The translations under genes and the position numbers were made by a program. Below the pieces are notes generated by a model, which searched no databases, was not told where the DNA came from, and worked only from the letters and a program-made list of their open reading frames with translations. DNA of 64,000 bases. Source: Candidatus Yanofskybacteria bacterium (GTDB taxonomy: Bacteria > Patescibacteriota > Minisyncoccia > 2-02-FULL-40-12 > IGHO2-12-FULL-4). Positions within the stretch are counted from its first letter, which is position 1. Every line of letters begins with the position of its first letter. Location of the stretch: assembly GCA_016185525.1 (NCBI GenBank), contig JACPNK010000006.1, forward strand, positions 22,728-86,727. Direction: 5' to 3'. Below are positions 18,538-34,193 of this stretch, in pieces.

Positions 18538-19557
18538 TCAAATTTTTATTTCCACCACGTCGCCGTCTTGGACTATGTAATCTCGGCCGACAAGTTTCAA
18601 GGTGCCGTTTTCGCGTGCTTTGCCCCACGAGCCAGCCTCCACTAACTTTTGCCAATTAATAACTTCTGCTCTAATGAAAAGTTTTTCAAAGTCAGTATGA
18701 ATAGCCCGGGAAGCTTTGGGGATAGGTGTATTTTTGGGCGCGGTCCAGGCCCGGGTTTCGTCTTCCCCCGTGGTTAAGAAGGTGATTAAATCCAGAAGCT
18801 TATAACTTTTGGAAATCAGTTCATCTAAACCGGAGTGTTCCCGGAAGACTTCTGTGAGGTATAAATCTTTTTCTTCCGGAGAGGCTTCAGACAGCAGAAG
18901 TTCAAAATTAGCGGACAAGACGACATATTGTGATTCGCCCATGGCTTTGATTAGCTCCGGTTCCGGTTGCCAGCGGTTTTTAACCTGCTCTTCCGAAGCG
19001 TTTAAAACATATATCACTTTTTTTGAAGCGAGCAGTTCCAATTCCGGCAATCCTGCCTGACCGGCAGACAGGTCTTCATTCTTGTTTTTTTTGGCCTTTC
19101 TTTTTTCTATGGATTGCAAATCGGCCAATGCTAACTCTGTCTTGATTATTTCTATGTCATGAACCGGGTCAACTTTGCTGTGGACGTGAATTATATTCTT
19201 GTCTTCAAAAACTCTTACCACATGAGCGACTGCATCCACCTCTCTGATGTTGGCCAAAAACTTATTGCCCAAACCCTCGCCTTCAGCGGCGCCTTTGATT
19301 AGTCCGGCAATGTCTATGAACTCAATTGCTGTCGGCACTATTTTTTTTGAATGAGAAAGTCCGGCTAGTATTTTCAGTCTTTCATCCGGCACCTCAACTA
19401 CGCCTACATTGGGATCAATCGTCGTAAAGGGGTAGTTGGCAATGGCTATTTGTTTTCCTGCCCCGTGGCCGCCGTCAGGCGACTTTACGGGGTTAGTTAA
19501 GGCCTTAAAGAGGGTGGATTTACCTACATTAGGCAGGCCTACGATTCCGATTTGCAT
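18538..19557 (-). CDS. ychF: Ribosome-binding ATPase YchF
   Basis: [40 protein letters not shown]-terminal TGS domain; carries two short palindromic in-frame inserts. Confidence 0.97.
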
Positions 19558-19683
19558 ATGCGGTGAATATTAGCAAAAATCCAGTAGATACGCCAATTTT
19601 TTGAGCTTGACTTTTTGCTGAAAAGGTATATGATTAAGGTATAGTTAGGATAGTTCCTTTATTTACTACTTGCCCGCTTCGAC
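19540..19683 (+). repeat. About 143-bp direct repeat (ychF start plus divergent promoters), second copy 23914-24056
   Basis: Near-identical alignment from TACGATTCC to CCCGCTTCGAC. Confidence 0.9.
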
Positions 19684-19828
19684 AAGTCGAAGACGAGGCG
19701 AGCGAGCAGTCATAGCCATAAGTTTCTGATACAAATTGGAAGTTTATTGCTATGACTGCCATTCTGGTGGTCATCGCTGCCGCATAGTGCGGCCAAAACT
19801 GCCGGCATAGCGCCGGAAGGAGGAAGTT

Positions 19829-20422
19829 ATGCGTTGGAATCCAGTTGAACAAGTACAGGATGTCGTGAACAAGTTCGGGACCGAGGAGCGCGTCAAGCGT
19901 TTCCAGTCCGGCGAGCTCGTGCTCGTGGAACGGACGGACCCTCGTGCAGTCGCGATGGTCCTCAACTTCGAGCGGAAGGTCTCGGTGGCCAGCCGCCGGT
20001 TCGTCACCGGCGAGAGCTTCACCAAGAGCAATCCCAAGGTGAAGTTTGGCCACATTGACGAGAAGGTCGTCAAGCTTTTTGGCAAGAGCCAGGACGTGCC
20101 GGCCGGCGAGCTGGCCACACACACGCTCTTACTGCCTAAGCACGATCCCGAAATCATGGTCGCTCTTGGACCTCAGTCCAGGCGTTTCATCAAGCTGGGC
20201 CAGTTCTACCAGTTGATCGAAGCGCAGGGCCAGGGCCAGGAAGGCTCCCTTCTCGTCAACGGATGCGCGAACATTGCGTACATTCTTGACGAGAACGGCG
20301 CGCCTTGGGCGGTCAGCGCGTACTGGGGCCCGATCGATGGCGACTGGCGCATGTGCGTTAACTCGGTTGCCCGCCTGCACGCGTGGCTTGCCGGCAGCCG
20401 GGTTCTCTCGCAAGTCGGATAA
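19829..20422 (+). CDS. DGR target protein 1 with C-terminal variable region
   Basis: GC-rich ORF with AGGAGG RBS; 3' end matches TR at 20701-20810. Confidence 0.9.
   Translation: MRWNPVEQVQDVVNKFGTEERVKRFQSGELVLVERTDPRAVAMVLNFERKVSVASRRFVTGESFTKSNPKVKFGHIDEKVVKLFGKSQDVPAGELATHTLLLPKHDPEIMVALGPQSRRFIKLGQFYQLIEAQGQGQEGSLLVNGCANIAYILDENGAPWAVSAYWGPIDGDWRMCVNSVARLHAWLAGSRVLSQVG
20304..20413 (+). repeat. DGR variable repeat VR1
   Basis: 110-bp ungapped match to TR1; by manual count 19 of 20 mismatches are at TR adenines. Confidence 0.95.
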
Positions 20423-20700
20423 GAACTGGGTTCCTTGGGAACTTGGTTCTTGGGCCGGCAGTAGCTTCAACGCTGTTGCCGGCTCATTTTTATTTCTATA
20501 AAATACAACTTGGATATTAGGCGAATCTGCTGATCTCCAATTGGATATCAGCGGCCGAACTCTAAGCGCGCATTCAGATTGCTATCGGAGCTTAAAAACG
20601 AAGATACTTGGTGCGGAACACTATGTGAGTCAGCTCACGAATTCGATGCAGTCCCGAGAGTATTCAACGGACAGTGGTAATGGTGGTGTTTCGCACAGAG

Positions 20701-20810
20701 CTTGGGCGGTCAACGCGAACTGGAACCCGAACTATGGCGACTGGAACATGAACGTTAACTCGGTTGCCAACCTGAACGAATGGAATGCCGGCAACCAGGT
20801 TCTCTCGAAA
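20701..20810 (+). repeat. DGR template repeat TR1
   Basis: AAC-rich copy of VR1. Confidence 0.95.
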
Positions 20811-20820
20811 TTCTCTTCGT

Positions 20821-21168
20821 TCAAAAACTCCTTTGCGGAGTTTTTGTTTGTTTTTGCCAGCCGCCGAGCATTTTGCCTATCTCATTCAGATGATTCGACA
20901 ATGTTACATATTTCTTTACATCAAGTATTTCTATTTCCCATGCAATCTGTAATATAAATTTCAACATATCAAATGAGTCCGAGGCCTTGGCAAGATAAAA
21001 TCCTTTTTGTTCACGGTTTTTATGAGCTGCAATAAATAAATGTTCCGTGGTTTCGATAAACAGGTTATCAATTTTTAGACCAATAGTATATCGATTGATT
21101 TTCTCTAATCTAATAAAATATTCATGCCAAACTTTGTAAACCACAATCAACTTTTGGATAATCGGCAA
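20821..21168 (-). CDS. avd: DGR accessory variability determinant Avd (four-helix bundle), antisense to TR and RT
   Basis: RYTIGLKID...LKFILQIAWE...EIGKMLGGW; likely true ATG at 21211, in frame only if the G10 tract is G9 or G12. Confidence 0.88.
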   Translation of the reverse strand: MPIIQKLIVVYKVWHEYFIRLEKINRYTIGLKIDNLFIETTEHLFIAAHKNREQKGFYLAKASDSFDMLKFILQIAWEIEILDVKKYVTLSNHLNEIGKMLGGWQKQTKTPQRSF

Positions 21169-21177
21169 AGTAGCGCT

Positions 21178-21187
21178 GGGGGGGGGG
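21178..21187. repeat. G10 homopolymer in the avd/RT head-to-head overlap
   Basis: CT-GGGGGGGGGG-CGTAG read directly from sequence. Confidence 0.9.
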
Positions 21188-21232
21188 CGTAGAAGGATTG
21201 AATTTGGTCATAGTTTTGATGAGGTTATTAGT

Positions 21233-22177
21233 TTGGAAAATTTACTGGAATCCTGGAAAGAGTTCCTGAAAGGCAAACGCAAGAGAAAGGATGTCCAGGA
21301 GTTTGGCCTTTTTCTGATGGATAATATTATAGGCCTGCACAACGATCTTGACAATCATACATATAACCACGGGCCATATCAAGCGTTTCGCATAAATGAT
21401 CCCAAACCGAGACAGATACACAAGTCATTGGTCCGTGACCGGTTGCTCCACCATGCTATTTATCGTCAACTCTATCCGTTTTTTGATCGAATGTTTACTG
21501 CCGACTCCTTCTCATGCCGACTTGGCAAGGGGACACACAAAGCATTAAACAGGTTCAGAAGTTTTGCATTCAAAGTCAGCAAAAACAACACCAGGACGTG
21601 TTGGATTTTGAAATGTGATATCAAGAAGTTCTTTGAGAATATTGACCACGAGGTTTTGCTTAGCATCTTAAAAGAATACATCCGTGACCGGAACACTATC
21701 TGGCTTTTAGAGAGAGTGATTTACAGCTTCTCATCCGCTCCAGGTAGGGGATTGCCTCTCGGCAATCTCACCTCGCAGTTGTTCGTGAATATCTATATGA
21801 ACGAATTTGATCAGTTTGTGAAGCACAATTTGAAGGCAAAATACTATATCAGATATGCCGATGACTTTGTGGTCTTGTTTCAAGACAAATCTTGGCTCGA
21901 AGAGATGCTTCCTAAAATGGGTGACTTTCTGGAAGAAAGATTAAAACTTGAACTTCATCCAGACAAGGTTTTTATCAAAACGTTTGCTTCGGGAGTTGAC
22001 TTCCTTGGCTGGGTTCACTTTCCAGATCACAGAGCATTGAGAACGACTACCAAGAAGCGGATGCTTAAAAGGATTAAGGCAAAACAGGATATTAGCACAA
22101 CCAAATCTTATTTGGGACTTATTAGTCATGGAAATGCTAAAAAACTAGAAAAAGAGATATTAAGGATTTCTGAATAA
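21233..22177 (+). CDS. DGR reverse transcriptase
   Basis: RDRLLHHA, LKCDIKKFF, GLPLGNLTSQ, YIRYADDF, GVDFLG; no maturase or HNH; frame stays open upstream through the G tract, likely ATG at 21124 if G9 or G12. Confidence 0.95.
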   Translation: MENLLESWKEFLKGKRKRKDVQEFGLFLMDNIIGLHNDLDNHTYNHGPYQAFRINDPKPRQIHKSLVRDRLLHHAIYRQLYPFFDRMFTADSFSCRLGKGTHKALNRFRSFAFKVSKNNTRTCWILKCDIKKFFENIDHEVLLSILKEYIRDRNTIWLLERVIYSFSSAPGRGLPLGNLTSQLFVNIYMNEFDQFVKHNLKAKYYIRYADDFVVLFQDKSWLEEMLPKMGDFLEERLKLELHPDKVFIKTFASGVDFLGWVHFPDHRALRTTTKKRMLKRIKAKQDISTTKSYLGLISHGNAKKLEKEILRISE

Positions 22178-22406
22178 TTTCTGTAGAGGGGGAAGTTTTA
22201 TTGTAAACTGAAACGGGATGTATTTGAGCCGGTTATCGTCAAATCCATGTCGCATTGCGTTCCGACTATACCAATCTGGAGCATTTTGGTAATTTATCAT
22301 TTTAAACCCACCTTCTCAAGTTAACTTGCTATCATCAGGATCTTATGATTTAATTCCGATATAATTACTAATGTAAATTTAGTGAGTGTTTGGTAAATTA
22401 TTATTT

Positions 22407-22976
22407 ATGGAAAACGGCTATTTTTATTCACGAAGAGAAAACGTCAACGATTTGTACTATGATGCTATGGAATTGCTTCATGGAAACATTGAGGAGGCCA
22501 GGAAAGCTGAAAAATTATTAGCAAAAGCTCTTGGCCTGGATCCTAATAATATCCAAACGCATATTGGTTTTGCGCATTTGTACGGACGTCTTAAAAATAA
22601 AAAGAAAACAGAAGAACATATCAAGAAGGCCTACGAAGAAACAACTAAGAAATTTCCGGTTTGGCCCAAGCGTATGGAGTGGGGCGACATGGATAATCGG
22701 GCGTATATGAGAGCGATACAATACCGCGCTGATCTTTACGCTGATGATGGAGAAAAAGAAAAAGCCGTAAGTTTATATCGGCTGCTTCTTAAGTTGAATC
22801 CCAACGATAACCAGGGTGCTAGGTACACCATCTCTGGTGTCTATGCCGGAATAAGCGGAAAAGAAATTAATAAAATGTTTGACGAGTGCAACAGGCGACA
22901 AAATTGGGCTAGGCTTGAAGACCTGATCAAAAAACAAAATGCCAAACACAAGTTTTGGAAAGAACCAAGATTTTGA
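22407..22976 (+). CDS. TPR-repeat protein
   Basis: KALGLDPNNIQTHIGFA and LLKLNPNDNQGARY helical repeats. Confidence 0.75.
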   Translation: MENGYFYSRRENVNDLYYDAMELLHGNIEEARKAEKLLAKALGLDPNNIQTHIGFAHLYGRLKNKKKTEEHIKKAYEETTKKFPVWPKRMEWGDMDNRAYMRAIQYRADLYADDGEKEKAVSLYRLLLKLNPNDNQGARYTISGVYAGISGKEINKMFDECNRRQNWARLEDLIKKQNAKHKFWKEPRF

Positions 22977-23019
22977 GAAGATTGTTGATATCAAATTTCC
23001 TACATGGTATATAATAAAA

Positions 23020-23358
23020 ATGAGTACAATTCATGAGTACCTCATTGATACAGAAGATTATAGAGGCAAGCGGGTAATCTTTACTGAAGCTAAGCGTCTA
23101 GAAAAGTCAGCCCAGCATGCCGAATTAAACAATAAGCAGTTTCTAAAAAATATTGAGCCGACCATTAAAGATCCCGAAGAGGTCTGGCCAGACTATAGTG
23201 ACAAAAATAGAAAAGCATGTTATTATAAGAAATACTCAGCCACTACTTATGTTAAGGTGGTAATTTGGATATATGACAGTCCTTGTCGAGTAGTTACTGC
23301 TTATGAAACTGATAAAATTAAGGAAATGCTATATCCAGAATTAAATCGTCTTAAATAA
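23020..23358 (+). CDS. Putative BECR/RelE-like nuclease toxin
   Basis: H..L...IEPTIKDPEEV...YYKKY...VKVVI...VVTAY pattern; own promoter TTGATA..TATAAT. Confidence 0.55.
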   Translation: MSTIHEYLIDTEDYRGKRVIFTEAKRLEKSAQHAELNNKQFLKNIEPTIKDPEEVWPDYSDKNRKACYYKKYSATTYVKVVIWIYDSPCRVVTAYETDKIKEMLYPELNRLK

Positions 23359-23368
23359 TTATAAAAAC

Positions 23369-23791
23369 ATGACAACTAACATTAAACAAAATAGAGAGTT
23401 TATTGACCTAGCCTCAAATCTCCAAGGATTTATTCAGAAAAACGGTTGGATTAGTAGATACGATCTTGAAAGTGATGCCTTTTCAATTACCACCCCGAAT
23501 TTATCGGAGGACGCTAGAATTCGCTATTTCGATGATGAGATAGCTCTTTATGTTACGAATGACAATAAGATTGAGGGTATCTTTATGGAATACTTCAAGA
23601 GTAATTTTGTCCAACACCATAAAGACCTCAAGCCTGTTTTAGAAAATATAGAAAAAGAACAAGGAAAGAAAGAAATCGGTCTTGTCCAATTAGGTAAAGA
23701 TAAAATACAAAAACTCGCTCCTGACATACAGGAAGCCCTCCAGGTGCTTCTGGCAGAGAAGCTTAATCTAGGATTAAACCAAGCTCGATAG
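23369..23791 (+). CDS. DUF2283-like putative antitoxin
   Basis: RYDLESDAFSI...KIEGIFMEYF; directly downstream of putative toxin. Confidence 0.5.
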   Translation: MTTNIKQNREFIDLASNLQGFIQKNGWISRYDLESDAFSITTPNLSEDARIRYFDDEIALYVTNDNKIEGIFMEYFKSNFVQHHKDLKPVLENIEKEQGKKEIGLVQLGKDKIQKLAPDIQEALQVLLAEKLNLGLNQAR

Positions 23792-24543
23792 TAGCCTGCT
23801 CAAATAATTGCTAAGGATTACCAAATAACTTCTGGACAGGAGGTAATTTTTTTTGAAACTAAAAGGTATCAGTTTTACCGGCATATTACCATAGCTGTAT
23901 CGCATTGCGTTCATACGATTCCTATTTGCATATGCGGTGAATATTAGCAAAAATCCAGTAGATACACCAGTTTTTGAACTTGACTTTTTGCTGAAAAGGT
24001 ATATAACTAAAGTATAGTTAGTATAGTTCCTTTATTTACTACTTGCCCGCTTCGACTCCTACTACCGTCTCGTTCGTCCTCGCAGGTAGCAAAAACCTGA
24101 GACTCTTGGTTCTTGGACCCCGTTCAGTTTACTGAACGGGGTCGTTTTCTTTGTAGCTTTTCAACTTTAAGCACTTTTACAGGCCTTGCCTGTCAGAATA
24201 CAATGAAATACCTCGCAAACCTGTGCAATCAGACGACCAATTCAAGAAAGTTCTGGCCCAAAACAATGCTTTACCACAGCAATGACCCTGAAGGCGTTGA
24301 AATAACGAGAGCCTTTACGACAAGTTTTGAAAAAGAAACTCTGCCTAAATATAGTGAGTAACTGGGTAGGGTAATCTGCTCTAATCAAAATAAAACCAAC
24401 CAACAAAAAAAACACCCCTCCGAGCCATATGTTGATATCTAATTTTCTATATGGTATATAATGAAGTTAAGGAAAATTTATAGTATAGAGCGTTGGTTAT
24501 AGGTAATGTTGACTTTTCTAGTTTACTAATTTATAATATTGCT

Positions 24544-24753
24544 ATGGTAAAAAATGTCAAAAATACTCTTCATATCGGTATTAAACAACTCCTAAAATTA
24601 GATGATAAGTTGGCGAAGCTGCGTAAGCCTACATCTATTGAGGAGGAGTCTTTGCATGCCCAACACAGATTTGAAGCGACATATTACTCAAACAAGCTTG
24701 AGGGGAATAAACTAACGAAAGAAGAGGCCAGAAAAGCTATTCTATTTAAGTAA
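24544..24753 (+). CDS. Class I Fic antitoxin (alpha-inh motif)
   Basis: SNKLEGN fits (S/T)xxxE(G/N); small ORF directly upstream of Fic gene. Confidence 0.7.
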   Translation: MVKNVKNTLHIGIKQLLKLDDKLAKLRKPTSIEEESLHAQHRFEATYYSNKLEGNKLTKEEARKAILFK

Positions 24754-24756
24754 TTA

Positions 24757-25388
24757 ATGAAACGTCCACTTAATAAACGTGAGTCAGACATATTAGAAGA
24801 AGAGGCCACTGGGAAGCCTCTTCTTCTTTACATAGACTTATCAAACGCTTAGTTCGTAAAAGACTTCCTTTAGAGCTGAGGTTTATTAAAACTGCACACA
24901 AAACTATTTTTGATATTGCTAAACAACCAGAAATCGGAGGCGTGTATCGAAACGACAACAGTCCAGAGTTAAAAAGAATAGATGGAACTACTCTGCCAAT
25001 GACAGATTGGCCCTTAATATCTAACGCAATGGCAGAACTTGATTCAGAACTTAGAGAAAAAACTAAAAATCTTGTGCATCCGAAAACTGAGCAAGGATAT
25101 TCTGAATTGATAATGCTAGCAACTAGACTTTCTCATAAACTGGTCTGTATACACCCCTTTAGAAATGGGAATGGAAGAGCGTCTAGATTATTATTAAATG
25201 CTATTCTTTTAAGAGCGGGCTTATCAGAAATTGCCATTAAAAAATCAAAACCAACATATCTCCGTGCCATGAGACAAGCTGATGATGGTGACTTTTCTCT
25301 TCTAGAGAACCTTGTTGTCAACGGGTTGGTCGAAACTAAAAAAATAAATTACTCAAGTATCCATTTGTCTTACCCATCAGGTCGCTAG
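24757..25388 (+). pseudogene. Fic-domain AMPylase, frameshifted near 24800-24812
   Basis: HPFRNGNGRASR motif; ATG 24757 frame stops early and the Fic frame has no start until 24942. Confidence 0.7.
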
Positions 25389-25493
25389 CTAAGGATTACC
25401 AAATAACTTTTGAGCAGGAGGAAGTTTTACTGTGAAACGGAATGGCATGAATTTAACTGATGAGCCGCTTGAGCTATGTCGTATTGCGTTCAT

Positions 25494-25513
25494 ACAATTC
25501 CGATTTTTAACAT
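25494..25513 (-). pseudogene. Displaced original ychF 5' end (MLKIGIV)
   Basis: ATG TTA AAA ATC GGA ATT GTA then TGA; TG-C-TACAAT -10 just upstream. Confidence 0.7.
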
Positions 25514-25670
25514 GTTCAGATTGTAGCAGAAAACTATGGAAAACCAAGAAAATAAAATTTAAAAACCGCCGTTACGGCGGGTCAAAAGCTTAGTCGCTCG
25601 AGTCATAATTTTGATTAAGCACCGCTTGTCAGCTTTTTACATTTTAGCGGAACAGGTTTAACATAAGAGA

Positions 25671-26477
25671 GTGCAAAAGCCATGGTACACGATAGAGGAA
25701 AAACACAAAAATAAGAAGCTGATTGTTTTTGATTTAGACGGTACGCTGACCGAGAGCAAAAAGGAGATAGACCAAGAGATGGCCTTGCTTTTGGCTAAAC
25801 TGCTTGAAAAAAAAGAAGTTGCCGTGGTTGGCGGCGGAAAATATGAGTTGTTTCAGAGTCAACTTTTGGCGAGGCTGAAAGTGCCGGAATCCTCACTGAA
25901 AAAACTTTTTATATTTCCAACTTCAGCCTCGTCCTTTTACAGTTATGTTAGGGGTTGGAAAAAAGTATATTCCAAAGAACTTTCAGAGGAAACACGGGCC
26001 AGAATTAAGAAGGCTTTTGAAGAAGTTTTCAAGGAAGTAAACTATAAACATCCCGAAAAAACTTATGGAGAGGTTATTGAAGACAGGGGTTCACAGGTTA
26101 CATTTTCCGTTTTTGGCCAGGACTTAGTTAAGGTTTTGGGCAAAAAAGGAGTTGAAATGAAAAAAGAATGGCGGGACAAAAATACTAGACTCAAATTAAG
26201 GCTCGCAAAGATGCTTCAAAAAAAACTGCCCGATTTGGAAGTCCGCGCGGCGGGCTATACTTCGATTGATGTAACTCAAAAGGGGATAGACAAGGCTTAT
26301 GGTTTAAGGCAAATAAAAAAGCATCTCGGAATTAAATTCAGCGAGATGCTGTTTGTAGGCGATGCTTTGTTTAAGGGCGGCAACGACTACGCTGCTCTTA
26401 AAACCGGCGTAGAATGTGTCGCGGTAAAGGGGCCGGAAGAAGCCAAGAAGATTATCAAATTCCTATTTTTTCTTTGA
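25671..26477 (+). CDS. HAD-IIB family hydrolase (phosphomannomutase-like)
   Basis: FDLDGTLTESK, IEDRGSQVTFS, TSIDVT, FVGDALFKGGND. Confidence 0.85.
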   Translation: MQKPWYTIEEKHKNKKLIVFDLDGTLTESKKEIDQEMALLLAKLLEKKEVAVVGGGKYELFQSQLLARLKVPESSLKKLFIFPTSASSFYSYVRGWKKVYSKELSEETRARIKKAFEEVFKEVNYKHPEKTYGEVIEDRGSQVTFSVFGQDLVKVLGKKGVEMKKEWRDKNTRLKLRLAKMLQKKLPDLEVRAAGYTSIDVTQKGIDKAYGLRQIKKHLGIKFSEMLFVGDALFKGGNDYAALKTGVECVAVKGPEEAKKIIKFLFFL

Positions 26478-27509: not shown

Positions 27510-27605
27510 AACCAACCAACCAACCAACCAACCAACCAACCAACCAACCAACCAACCAACCAACCAACCAACCAACCAACCAACCAACCAACCAACCAAC
27601 CAACC
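27510..27605 (+). repeat. (AACC)24 tetranucleotide repeat after an ATG
   Basis: 96 bp perfect repeat starting 9 nt after ATG 27501. Confidence 0.95.
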
Positions 27606-27668: not shown

Positions 27669-27838
27669 TTATTTTTCGGTTAACCAAAACCAGAATTGAT
27701 TTTTTAGTTCTCGTGACAATTTATATGAATTAGCATGACTTAAAACACCGAGATACGTTTGCAACGATTGTTCAAGAGTTTCAGTAGAAATAAGGTCTTG
27801 CTTTTGGCGGCTGGATAAAATCAACCCGCGATTGTTAA
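27669..27838. pseudogene. Fused remnants of DGR RT C-terminus (minus) and avd C-terminus (plus)
   Basis: Minus strand QSLQTYLGVLSHANSYKL resembles RT1 KSYLGLISHGNAKKL; plus strand GGWIKSTRDC* resembles Avd1 GGWQKQ. Confidence 0.7.
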
Positions 27839-27880
27839 AGAAATATCCTCCAAGCGGAGGATATTTCTTGTAAGAGAGAA

Positions 27881-27998
27881 AGAAGTTCCGGGAGGCACCA
27901 ACGCCCACGTTGTTGTTGCGATTGCCGTTCCAGTTATTGATGTTGAGGCCGTTCTCGTCGAAGTTGCCGACACACGAAACGTTGTCAGCGTTGGCCGA
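27881..27998 (-). repeat. DGR template repeat TR2
   Basis: AAC-rich 118-bp copy of VR2. Confidence 0.95.
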
Positions 27999-28355
27999 AA
28001 AGAACGCATAATGCCCATCTCCATCTATGTCACCGGGGATTTAGGTTTACCACCCAAGCGGGCCTATATCCTATCTCCCCTGAATTTTATTCGGGAGCAT
28101 CTGCTTTTTACGGCAGAACCTCCACTAAAGACAAGCAAGAAGTTCAATCTCAACTTTTTATCGCGCACTACCGTAATCCGTAAACGACGGTATTCCGGCG
28201 ATTCCTCAAAAGAAGAGGTGTCCGCGAGGTGAAGCCGTAACCGCATCTGCATTAGCAGACAAAGAAATTGTATCAAGTATTATTATAAAAACAAAACGAG
28301 CCTTCGGCGCTGCGAAAAAAAATTCGCGCCGAAGGCTCAAGCAAGGCTTCAAGGT

Positions 28356-29210
28356 TCAGAACTTCCGGGAGGCACCAACGCCCACGTTGCCGGCGCGACC
28401 GCCGTCCCAGCTATCGATGCGGAGGCCGCGCCCGTCGAAGCGGCCGACACACGAAACGTCGCCAGCGAAGGCCGAGTCGGTCTTCACTGTCCGCTCCGCG
28501 CAGGCTGCCCATTTGGATCCGTTGGGACGAACACCAGTCTTACGGAAGACGAGGATGTCCTTGGTCGTTTCCATTATCGTCGATGGCACTTCGTACTCGG
28601 GCGGAAGCATCGCCACCTGCTCTTCGGGCGTCTTGTTCGTCGAGTTAGGAACGATCTCCGTATGGAGCAGGTAATAGCGAAGCCGCATGGTCGCCACATC
28701 GGTGTGGGGCTGGCCTCCGTGCCAGGGGTTGCTGTTGAAGTAGAACTTCGGCTGGCCCGTTGCCGGATGCAACTGAAGCCACTTGGCCACCGTGAGAGGC
28801 GAACCGTTGATGGCGGTCAGGCCCAGGAATGCGAAGTGGCAGTCCTTCACCACCTTGCCGCAGAGCGGGCAGGTGGAATTGAGGATGTCCTCACCCCACG
28901 GGAACTTTCCGGCGTCGCGGATCTGCTTCTTCGTGAACTTGGCGTCGTAGTAGCTCATCCAGTCGGCAACATCGAAAATGTTGCGACCGAGAACCATACG
29001 AGCCATGCGCGATTCGATAGAACCGATGAGGCCTTTTCGCAACATCGCCTGAGCGATGCGGCGAGTGTACTCGCTGTCGGTGCGGAAGAGATCGAAGAGA
29101 TCGCGGGGATTGCCTCCCTCACTGGCAATCGCTTTCTCAAGCGACGCCACGCTTTCCTCGAACTCACCCTTGGTCATGGTCCAGAGACCGCTTGTCTTGG
29201 CTTGTGTCAT
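28356..29210 (-). CDS. DGR target protein 2
   Basis: GC-rich ORF, AAGGAG RBS before MTQAK; C-terminal VR ending GVGASRKF. Confidence 0.9.
   Translation of the reverse strand: MTQAKTSGLWTMTKGEFEESVASLEKAIASEGGNPRDLFDLFRTDSEYTRRIAQAMLRKGLIGSIESRMARMVLGRNIFDVADWMSYYDAKFTKKQIRDAGKFPWGEDILNSTCPLCGKVVKDCHFAFLGLTAINGSPLTVAKWLQLHPATGQPKFYFNSNPWHGGQPHTDVATMRLRYYLLHTEIVPNSTNKTPEEQVAMLPPEYEVPSTIMETTKDILVFRKTGVRPNGSKWAACAERTVKTDSAFAGDVSCVGRFDGRGLRIDSWDGGRAGNVGVGASRKF
28358..28475 (-). repeat. DGR variable repeat VR2
   Basis: By manual count 20 of 21 mismatches to TR2 are at TR adenines; the other is near the 3' end. Confidence 0.95.
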
Positions 29211-29480
29211 AACACATCTCCTTTTTTTGTCGGTTTGCTCTCCATGTCCTTTAGGGACTCTTGAGAGCGGATGCCCCATGCCGTGGGGCTGCGGTCCTGC
29301 CTACCGGCAGGCAGGCTTGTCTCAGAAGTTGAGACAAGTATGCTGGAAACCATTGTTTAGGCATCCAAAATGCTTGTCTCAAGTAGAACCTTATTGTAAG
29401 GAACTACATCATAATTATATCATCTTGTAAGTGTGCCTGTCAATAGGGTATTTTACTCGGGACTAGGGAATGGACTGGGT

Positions 29481-32651: not shown

Positions 32652-34160
32652 ATGAAATATATACTTTACGCTCGTAAATCTACCGAGGAGGATGACCGAC
32701 AAGTGCTTTCGATTCAAGCGCAACTCGAAGAGTTGCAAGAGTATGCCGCCAAAGAAAAACTTGAAATTGTCGCCTCGTTTTGCGAGGCGAAAACCGCAAA
32801 AGAGCCCGGGCGAATTAAATTCGCTGAAATGTTGTCATTGATTGAGAAGGGGAAAGCAGACGGAATTATTTCTTGGCACCCCGATAGATTGGCTCGTAAT
32901 TCTGTGGACGGAGGGAAGATTATTCATTTCGTAGATCGTGGCTTGATTCATTCCCTAAAATTTCCCACTTTCTGGTTCGAGGCAACACCACAAGGTTTGT
33001 TTATGCTTCAGATTGCTTTCGGTCAATCAAAATATTTTGTAGATAATTTGCGAGAGAATGTGAAGCGCGGTTTGCGACAAAAGATACGAAATGGAACATG
33101 GCCCGGTTGGGCTCCGGTTGGCTACCTAAATAACCCTAAAACCCGTGGTATAGACATTGATGTGGACAAAGCACCTAAAGTGCTAAAAATGTTTGAACTG
33201 TATGCCACCGGAGCGCATACGCTCCACTCTCTCGCAAAATGGTGCGATAACAATAACCTACGCGGCAATCTTGGGAAAAAACTTGTTATCGCAAATATAC
33301 AGAAAAATCTACAAAATATTTTCTATCTCGGTTTGATGAAGTGGAAAAGGGAAATTTTTGAGGGAAAACACGAGCCGTTAATCTCAAAGAAACTTTTTGA
33401 TAAATGTCAGGAAGTTATGGCGAAACGCGGTAAAGTGCAGGAGGTTCGCAAACATCATTTTGCTTTTCTTGGCCTTTTAAAATGTGCCTCTTGTGGTTGC
33501 TCAATCACCGGAGAGCGACAGAAAGGACATAATTACTATCGTTGCACGAAAAAGAAAGGGCCATGCCAAGAAAAGCATTATCTCCGCGAGGAAGTGTTAA
33601 CCGAGCAGATCAAAAACTTCTTGCAAAAAGTTTCTTTGTCGAGCCAAGACACCGAGAAAGTTTTGGCGGCGTTGGATAGCGAACAGGATAAAGCACGGCA
33701 AGATGCACAAGGCGAGATTAGTATTTTGAAAGAGCAATTAGGAGAGGTTGAAACAAAACTTCAAAAACTATTAGACATCTATCTTGCCGACACTTTATCC
33801 ACAGAAGAATATGCCGCCAAAAAGAAAAGTTTGCTGTATCAAAAAATGTCTTTGAATGAGAAAATCACCGACTTTGAGACAAAAGGATTGTCTTGGCTCG
33901 AACCGGCTCGTGATTTCGTTTTATCTTTGAATCAAGCCACGAATCTGCTTTCCCCTCCCAATCTTTCTGGAATGACAACATTTCTAAAAAACATCGGCTC
34001 GAACCATGTTTTGCAAAATCGCCAATTCTTTTTTGCCCCGAAAATCCAATACGAATTAGTCGCCGAGCGAAGCGAGGCAAACCTTTCAAACTTGCAATTT
34101 CCTGTCTGGTGCCCAGGGGGAGATTTGAACTCCCACGCTCTTACGAGCACACGGCCCTGA
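32652..34160 (+). CDS. Large serine recombinase
   Basis: YARKST catalytic motif, DRLARN, recombinase domain, CASCG zinc ribbon, coiled coil. Confidence 0.95.
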   Translation: MKYILYARKSTEEDDRQVLSIQAQLEELQEYAAKEKLEIVASFCEAKTAKEPGRIKFAEMLSLIEKGKADGIISWHPDRLARNSVDGGKIIHFVDRGLIHSLKFPTFWFEATPQGLFMLQIAFGQSKYFVDNLRENVKRGLRQKIRNGTWPGWAPVGYLNNPKTRGIDIDVDKAPKVLKMFELYATGAHTLHSLAKWCDNNNLRGNLGKKLVIANIQKNLQNIFYLGLMKWKREIFEGKHEPLISKKLFDKCQEVMAKRGKVQEVRKHHFAFLGLLKCASCGCSITGERQKGHNYYRCTKKKGPCQEKHYLREEVLTEQIKNFLQKVSLSSQDTEKVLAALDSEQDKARQDAQGEISILKEQLGEVETKLQKLLDIYLADTLSTEEYAAKKKSLLYQKMSLNEKITDFETKGLSWLEPARDFVLSLNQATNLLSPPNLSGMTTFLKNIGSNHVLQNRQFFFAPKIQYELVAERSEANLSNLQFPVWCPGGDLNSHALTSTRP

Positions 34161-34193
34161 ACCGTGAATGTCTGCCAATTTCATCACCTGGGC
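34107..34193 (-). tRNA. tRNA-Leu(CAG)
   Basis: GCCCAGG acceptor, CACGG-TTCAGGG-CCGTG anticodon arm, long variable arm, CCA. Confidence 0.95.

What the first reader, a model, noticed from the sequence alone, without database searches (positions are those of the whole stretch)
19540..25513. Tandem array of integrase-less gene cassettes stacked in the 5' end of ychF
Seen: four ychF starts on the minus strand: 19557 (MQIGIVGLP, intact), 22284 (MLQIGIVG), 23931 (MQIGIV*) and 25513 (MLKIGIV*). They differ at synonymous sites and each has a -10-like hexamer just upstream. Each orphan start breaks at the same codon into a conserved end, GAACGCAAT(G/A)CGA...GTTTCA...AA(C/A)TT(C/A)C.CCT...TTATT. At 23899-23919 the junction is an imperfect dyad, ATCGCAT-7nt-ATACGAT. 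The 2.7, 1.65 and 1.6 kb units carry plus-strand cargo (DGR, TPR plus TA pair, Fic TA) and no recombinase. Inference: each incoming cassette replaces the ychF promoter and first codons, building an integron-like array mobilised in trans.
Basis: partly seen in the sequence, partly recalled or inferred. Interest (0 to 1): 0.85.

Follow-up and report, generated by a model that had tools for sequence, protein, structure and literature searches.

The report
Stacked integrase-lost islands inside ychF
Three small gene islands are stacked in the first codons of the ychF gene of a small-genome bacterium; each begins with the cut-off tail of a serine integrase gene, so they are likely leftovers of repeated site-specific insertions that later lost their integrase, and the same tail marks this site in about one in twenty related genomes.

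Summary
In detail: four ychF starts and three units of 2,724, 1,650 and 1,579 bp, none with an intact recombinase; congeners have the empty site. The interpretation changes. The 'conserved end' is the 3' tail of a large serine recombinase (LSR) gene. Relatives carry 7-19 kb elements whose LSR overlaps the restored ychF start, and 27 of 120 listed homologues end in this tail. The tail occurs in 20 of 401 class genomes; of the 19 others, 4 keep the LSR, 13 lack it and 2 are cut by contig ends. No cognate LSR was found in this genome or those 13, and no attC features. Best model: a ratchet. An LSR island inserts and splits its integrase gene; the integrase body is lost; a host-type promoter and start rebuild the target; the next island inserts. 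Intermediates exist. Close precedents: Dehalococcoides ssrA islands and CIMEs; ychF is a reported LSR site in pipolins. New variant of a known kind, often carrying DGRs.

The parts
18538..19557 (-). Intact ychF; its first codons come from unit C's right end
   Evidence: Pfam YchF-GTPase_C and MMR_HSR1
19547..19548 (-). Central GG of the regenerated attB-like site (host-type left arm | ychF body); predicted next insertion point
   Evidence: attP symmetry centre in relatives; arm classification
19549..19683 (-). Right end of unit C: ychF start and promoter-like region, 94% identical to unit A's right end; also holds a plus-strand promoter-like site (19607-19634) facing the cargo
19548..22271 (.). 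Unit C (2,724 bp), inferred youngest; DGR cargo
19829..20422 (+). DGR target gene with variable repeat at 20304-20416
20701..20813 (+). DGR template repeat
   Evidence: 19 of 21 differences from VR at TR adenines
20821..21168 (-). Avd
   Evidence: PF22296 over cut-off; NF033474 below cut-off
21233..22177 (+). DGR reverse transcriptase
   Evidence: PF00078
22160..22270 (-). Integrase 3' tail of unit C (P' arm plus open 36-codon frame ending KLPPLQKLFRNP)
22271..22272 (-). Central GG of the attL-like junction between units B and C
22273..22330 (-). Right end of unit B: orphan start MLQI with promoter-like site; source unknown
22272..23921 (.). Unit B (1,650 bp)
22413..22976 (+). TPR protein
   Evidence: TPR_8, TPR_14
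23020..23358 (+). PBECR2 nuclease-like gene (likely toxin)
   Evidence: PF18810
23369..23791 (+). 140-aa partner (likely antitoxin; inferred from position)
   Evidence: no Pfam hit; 32% match to a gene of the LSR element in L057
23811..23920 (-). Integrase 3' tail of unit B; frameshifted in an A run
23921..23922 (-). Central GG of the attL-like junction between units A and B
23923..24056 (-). Right end of unit A: orphan start MQI and promoter-like region
23922..25500 (.). Unit A (1,579 bp), inferred oldest
24544..25388 (+). Fic pair: small upstream gene (24544-24753) and a frameshifted Fic gene
   Evidence: PF02661 on 24942-25385; frames
25389..25499 (-). Integrase 3' tail of unit A (open frame ending KLPPAQKLFGNP)
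   Evidence: homologue P0063 ends KLPPRQKLFGNP
25500..25501 (-). Central GG of the outer attL (native ychF start | unit A)
25502..25620 (-). Native ychF start and promoter, now orphaned
   Evidence: 95.6% over 113 bp to the uninterrupted start in congener G003
25671..26477 (+). HAD hydrolase, the host gene that lies next to ychF in the empty congeners

Best explanation
Each unit begins with the 3' tail of a large serine recombinase gene and is likely the stranded remnant of an island that inserted itself into ychF and then lost the rest of that gene. Shown by comparison: a family of LSR islands sits at this site in Patescibacteria-type genomes, with the integrase body overlapping the restored ychF start and the tail at the far end. 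Inferred: attP lies inside the integrase gene, crossover is at the GG of the first Gly codon, and insertion splits the gene. Inferred: the integrase body and usually its P arm are then deleted or overwritten, and ychF gets a host-type promoter and start, sometimes copied from an upstream junction. This locks the cargo in and rebuilds an attB-like site, so the next island inserts beside ychF. Three rounds would give the order A, B, C.
For: L057: same end plus a 556-aa LSR (PF00239, PF07508, PF13408) overlapping the ychF start. 4 of 4 class hits to the LSR C-terminus abut ychF. 27 of 120 listed homologues end in the tail. The distal part of the end is conserved as protein: mismatch by codon position 0.29/0.19/0.65 and 3,697 synonymous vs 784 non-synonymous single changes over 40 ends (pairs not independent; frames chosen because open). 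Complementarity about GG is 0.58 in 8 attP sites vs 0.12-0.33 for 47 other centres. ATGTC 19 nt left of GG marks 12 of 13 integrase-bearing sites and none of the 4 window junctions. Intermediates: truncated integrase (L098), integrase 3' fragment with P arm (L134), bare P-arm starts (L023, L024, L030, L136). Right end copied from an upstream junction in 3 of 21 integrase-less loci (window 134 bp, L118 62 bp, L038 50/51 bp), while 1,724 between-locus pairs reach at most 26 anchored matches apart from one same-genus pair. No cognate LSR in G000 (best 27% over 165 aa).
Against: Most integrase-less right ends have no identified source. Tails are mostly intact: 2 of 3 here and 8 of 8 found by DNA profile in relatives, which fits recent loss but also continued use. 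DGRs lie beside ychF in 9 loci, but no RT hit was found in the LSR-bearing loci searched, so cargo is not simply leftover. P-arm remnants joined to a new tail (L023, L030, L098, L136) suggest insertion into attR-like sites, which the standard LSR model does not allow, so this enzyme may be relaxed enough to move units too. The attB 5-bp motif shift is only weakly seen (best offset but negative score). No reaction was tested.
Confidence: 0.62

Rival explanations
1. Cis-mobilised cassettes (CIME-like). A helper LSR island inserts at the rebuilt site beside ychF, excises using an outer attL so that the unit's tail completes the helper's integrase, carries the unit to a new host, then excises alone and leaves the unit with a foreign start. 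Only standard LSR reactions are needed. This can coexist with the best model as the route of spread.
For: Mostly intact tails; right ends unlike the resident promoter; the same DGR unit with different left flanks in two same-genus genomes, L138 and L140; CIME-ICE tandem transfer is reported (PMC5704250, passages); L098 has units upstream of a truncated integrase.
Against: 0 of 7 intact LSR elements had an upstream integrase-less unit in the flank read (1 to 13 kb; too few to be decisive). Right ends are not shared across genera. Does not explain how the first host-type right end arose.
Confidence: 0.24
2. One reading: ready-made cassettes excised and inserted in trans by a recombinase encoded elsewhere, like an integron array.
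For: Integrase-less units outnumber LSR-bearing ones 13 to 4; small size and toxin-antitoxin or DGR cargo; signs that the left arm is poorly discriminated.
Against: No cognate LSR in G000 or the integrase-less class genomes; ends are coding sequence without attC features; no joint skipping a unit in contigs of 4 runs (contigs drop rare forms); in the standard model attL x attL and attL x attB do not excise (PMC3783163, passages).
Confidence: 0.1
3. Assembly artefact: alleles of different strains joined in tandem at the repeated starts.
For: Contigs break at the 134-bp end shared by A and C; a related locus, L137, shows a gap-joined exact copy that may be such an artefact.
Against: Depth is flat across all units and flanks in 4 runs; junctions 22272 and 25501 lie inside contigs; the copies differ by 6%; gap-free tandems exist elsewhere (L118, L136, L021).
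Confidence: 0.04

Closest known systems
Dehalococcoides ssrA genomic islands (DsiB; PMC3146451, passages read)
   Same: LSR of about 540 aa; tandem islands at one site; many without an integration module (15 reported); integrase gene overlaps the att site and may need a 3' fragment from the circle or a neighbouring island
   Different: Target there is tmRNA with a 20-bp direct repeat; here it is the 5' codons of a protein gene, the promoter and start must be replaced, and the right ends are rebuilt as host-type arms
CIMEs and tandem accretion (PMC5704250, passages read)
   Same: Elements that lost integration genes but keep att ends; accretion by later arrivals next to the target gene
   Different: CIMEs keep attL and attR; most units here lost the P arm; function of the ends and cis-mobilisation are untested
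Pipolins with LSRs at ychF in Actinomycetota (PMC11551731, passages read)
   Same: ychF named as an LSR integration site
   Different: The passages give no crossover, split integrase or integrase-less stacks; relation to this LSR family was not tested; piPolB was not searched for here
SCC composite islands with pseudo-SCC elements at rlmH (search listing and abstract starts only; details recalled)
   Same: LSR-made tandem islands, some lacking recombinase; CcrB is the best NCBIfam match of the L057 LSR
   Different: Score 121 vs cut-off 900; single integrase gene; 5' not 3' gene target
Integrons (recalled)
   Same: Tandem small cargo units without their own recombinase, growing at one end
   Different: No intI, attI or attC; ends are serine-integrase remnants

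Membership tests
Integron | IntI tyrosine recombinase next to the array | tested here: not met
   PF00589 hits only on C6 and C7, none near the array
Integron | attC sites: RYYYAAC...GTTRRRY with a single-strand hairpin | tested here: not met
   0 core pairs within 200 nt of 4 junctions; folding z from +0.41 to -1.54 for 6 strands
Integron | One promoter at attI drives promoterless cassettes | tested here: not met
   Cargo runs away from ychF and has promoter-like sites inside each unit (consensus matches only)
LSR-integrated island | LSR with resolvase, recombinase and zinc-ribbon domains tied to the ends | tested here: met
   Met for the family (L057, L069-L072, L017, L044); the window holds only the 3' tails
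LSR-integrated island | attP about 50 bp, dyad about a central dinucleotide | tested here: met
   0.58 complementarity about GG vs at most 0.33 elsewhere; GACAT at 20-24 on both arms
LSR-integrated island | Distal motif shifted 5 bp inward in attB | tested here: inconclusive
   Best offset on B' is the 5-bp shift, but the mean score is -11
LSR-integrated island | Empty target in relatives | tested here: met
   G003 and G002 have HAD next to an uninterrupted ychF; a 285-bp contig of a relative in runs X2 and X4 reads from this promoter into intact ychF
CIME | No integration or transfer genes | tested here: met
   ORF list and Pfam scan of the units; recombinase searches
CIME | Keeps attL and attR | tested here: not met
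   Left ends keep the P' arm (scores 6.5-14.5); right ends lack the P-arm motif (scores -24 to -30)
CIME | Mobilised together with an adjacent element | not testable with these tools
   Needs excision or transfer assays
DGR (unit C cargo) | RT, Avd, TR and VR with adenine-specific differences | tested here: met

The most novel reading that the evidence does not exclude
The units are live cassettes: each keeps a spare integrase C-terminus so that any visiting island that lands beside ychF is completed by the cassette's tail on excision and carries it away. The ychF start would then be a class-wide exchange point for DGRs and toxin-antitoxin genes in Patescibacteria, an integron-like platform run by visiting serine integrases with swappable tails.
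Probability: 0.2. Interest if true: 0.75.

Novelty: new variant of a known kind. Interest (0 to 1): 0.5.

Why it matters
It defines a common insertion hot spot in reduced-genome bacteria (20 of 401 class genomes by a short tail profile) and gives a countable record of past insertions: one integrase tail per round. It shows how a one-way serine integrase can still build arrays, if the target is rebuilt after each round while an important gene stays expressed. It offers a testable route for the spread of DGRs, which lie beside ychF in 9 loci here. It also supplies predicted attP and attB sites for an LSR family with at least 322 database members.

Tried and rejected
attC or hairpin: no signal. 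Resident recombinases as the trans enzyme: the two LSRs of G000 are distant (profile scores 47 and 25 vs 730-967 for family members), and one reads into tRNA-Leu. Right ends as fused integrase promoters: no blast match of the window's right ends to any held locus, LSR upstream regions included. Tail expressed as a small peptide through the ATGA overlap at 25501 and 23922: an ATG at that place is absent from most other ends, so rejected as general. Phage carrier: the pattern scan of viral contigs gave 1 hit, judged chance, and the LSR scan gave only 26-27% relatives. Excised or skipped forms: no such joint in contigs, which cannot show absence. Dropped rows: L137 from the arm-copy count (10-N gap beside the copy); pattern hits G140, L059, L062, L088, L095 and L114 as likely chance (no tail frame). 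The PBECR2 query was out of frame, so its blank means nothing. No structure or complex prediction was run.
Full report
Observation. The four starts, the shared end, the unit sizes and the cargo are as described. The genome is 812 kb in 8 contigs. The closest named relatives of the end and of the integrase are Patescibacteria such as Ca. Yanofskybacteria, by the tools' own record titles. The outermost start (25513) is the native one: its upstream 113 bp are 95.6% identical to the uninterrupted ychF start of congener G003, where the HAD gene lies next to ychF. G002 is also empty. Depth is flat over the array in 4 runs of one study, which may be the source of this DNA; no joint skips a unit; contigs break at the end shared by units A and C.

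What the end is. A scan of species genomes for the junction gave 8 loci. L057 holds a 7.3-kb element with the same end and a 556-aa LSR whose frame runs over the restored ychF start. In the LSR frame the end reads as the missing C-terminus: NA(I/M)RH...KLIPF.F.IKLPP.QKLFGNP. It is open in window units A and C and frameshifted in B. A search with LSR residues 300-540 found 322 proteins, of which 120 were listed; 27 of those 120 end in this tail, one with KLPPRQKLFGNP. Four metagenome loci (L092, L094, L108, L126) and one Bacteroidota chromosome locus (L058) show the integrase reading straight into the tail. Over 40 aligned ends the distal 13 columns vary mostly at third codon positions, whereas the first 8 codons do not, as expected for a DNA-binding arm followed by coding sequence (pairs are not independent and open frames were selected).

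Crossover. Both arms carry GACAT 20-24 bases out; on the left this is the ATG of the element-supplied ychF start, present at 12 of 13 integrase-bearing sites. In the window all three right-hand arms match this motif and none of the four left-hand arms does. The array is therefore three attL-like junctions followed by an attB-like site. The 5-bp inward shift expected in attB (PMC3783163, passages) is only weakly visible.

How common. A 36-position tail profile hit 20 of 401 class genomes including this one. Of the other 19: 4 carry the LSR at ychF (G183, G295, G299, G410; 10-19 kb), 13 reach ychF with no LSR (0.9-7 kb units; 3 of the 13, G004, G014 and G258, have N gaps; G254 keeps a short 3' fragment), and 2 are cut by contig ends. 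One C-terminal LSR query matched only those 4 of 401 genomes. Among 39 nearer relatives with ychF flanks read (up to 8 kb, some much shorter), 7 had the end without LSR and 2 had the LSR; this set overlaps the class sample. A metagenome pattern scan gave 51 loci. More than one end in a locus was seen in L009, L080, L099, L113, L118 and L136, and L021 has a second orphan start with a different end. G000 has two LSRs and two tyrosine recombinases, none cognate or adjacent.

How the integrase is lost. Intermediates: L098 keeps LSR residues 251-553; L134 keeps a short 3' fragment and the P arm; L023, L024, L030 and L136 keep only the P-arm start. In 3 of 21 integrase-less loci the right end is a long copy of an upstream junction's left arm (window, L118, L038); L137 was dropped because of a gap. 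Between loci, right ends are unrelated except for one same-genus pair. This favours local rebuilding over a travelling cassette family, but most right ends have no traced source, and how the copy is made (deletion, gene conversion or uptake of DNA from an empty allele) is inference.

Against my reading. Tails are mostly intact. RT hits lie in 8 other ychF-adjacent or tail-bearing loci (L046, L064, L118, L130, L135, L136, L138, L140) but in none of the LSR-bearing loci searched. New tails joined to old P arms suggest a relaxed enzyme. These keep cis-mobilisation (0.24) and trans-mobilisation (0.10) open. None of 7 intact elements had an upstream unit, a small sample.

Comparison with print. PMC3146451 (passages) describes tandem LSR islands at ssrA, 15 without integration modules, and an integrase gene overlapping the att site. 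PMC5704250 (passages) defines CIMEs and accretion. PMC11551731 (passages) names ychF as an LSR site for pipolins. PMC8637289 (passages) lists a pneumococcal prophage site upstream of ychF. Durrant et al. had no ychF hit in the preprint text or in 8 supplementary files of PMC10083194. Searches returned nothing on this family, its split gene or these stacks in Patescibacteria; the library lacks most subscription papers, one island-mapping paper was not held, and supplements of the other papers were not read. SCC and integron details are recalled.

Verdict. A real feature, explained in outline by known LSR island biology, with an unreported variant: a split integrase that leaves a tail per insertion, a rebuilt target and promoter, and integrase-less units as the commonest state. 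Interest 0.5.

Noticed in passing
window 27669-29279: A second DGR beside trpS (VR/TR 20 of 21 differences at TR adenines) has lost about 1.2 kb holding avd and most of the RT that congener G002 keeps; it may depend on another RT in trans.
   Followed up: partly
G000:C8:33025-33765: Another RT, 69% identical to the unit C RT over 247 aa; a homologue of the unit C target gene lies at C5:40150-40488.
   Followed up: no
window 32652-34160: An unrelated 502-aa LSR whose C-terminus reads into tRNA-Leu(CAG) at 34107-34193, the same integrase-overlaps-target layout at another site.
   Followed up: partly
L021, L023, L030, L098, L136 (near the ends): A NYN-domain-like gene recurs beside these junctions in five loci (Pfam NYN tested for one), possibly a distinct minimal unit; L021's outer unit has a different left end.
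   Followed up: no
L136 (G311:C2:204200-224100): Three ends, a truncated 77-codon ychF copy, an IS-like gene, a PurL-like gene and a DGR in one array.
   Followed up: partly
L058: A family LSR in the tail-bearing (attP) form in a Bacteroidota chromosome with no ychF start beside it; several Bradyrhizobium homologues also end in the tail.
   Followed up: no
L017, L061, L069, L108 (upstream of the LSR): A short HTH-like ORF directly precedes the LSR; a candidate directionality factor or regulator.
   Followed up: no
window 19672-19706 and 27510-27605: A short intergenic repeat shared with many other contigs of the same runs ends the A/C shared arm; an (AACC)n run lies near trpS.
   Followed up: no
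L046 (G036:C4): A DGR 73% identical to unit C's lies upstream of ychF in the same orientation but with no detectable tail end.
   Followed up: partly
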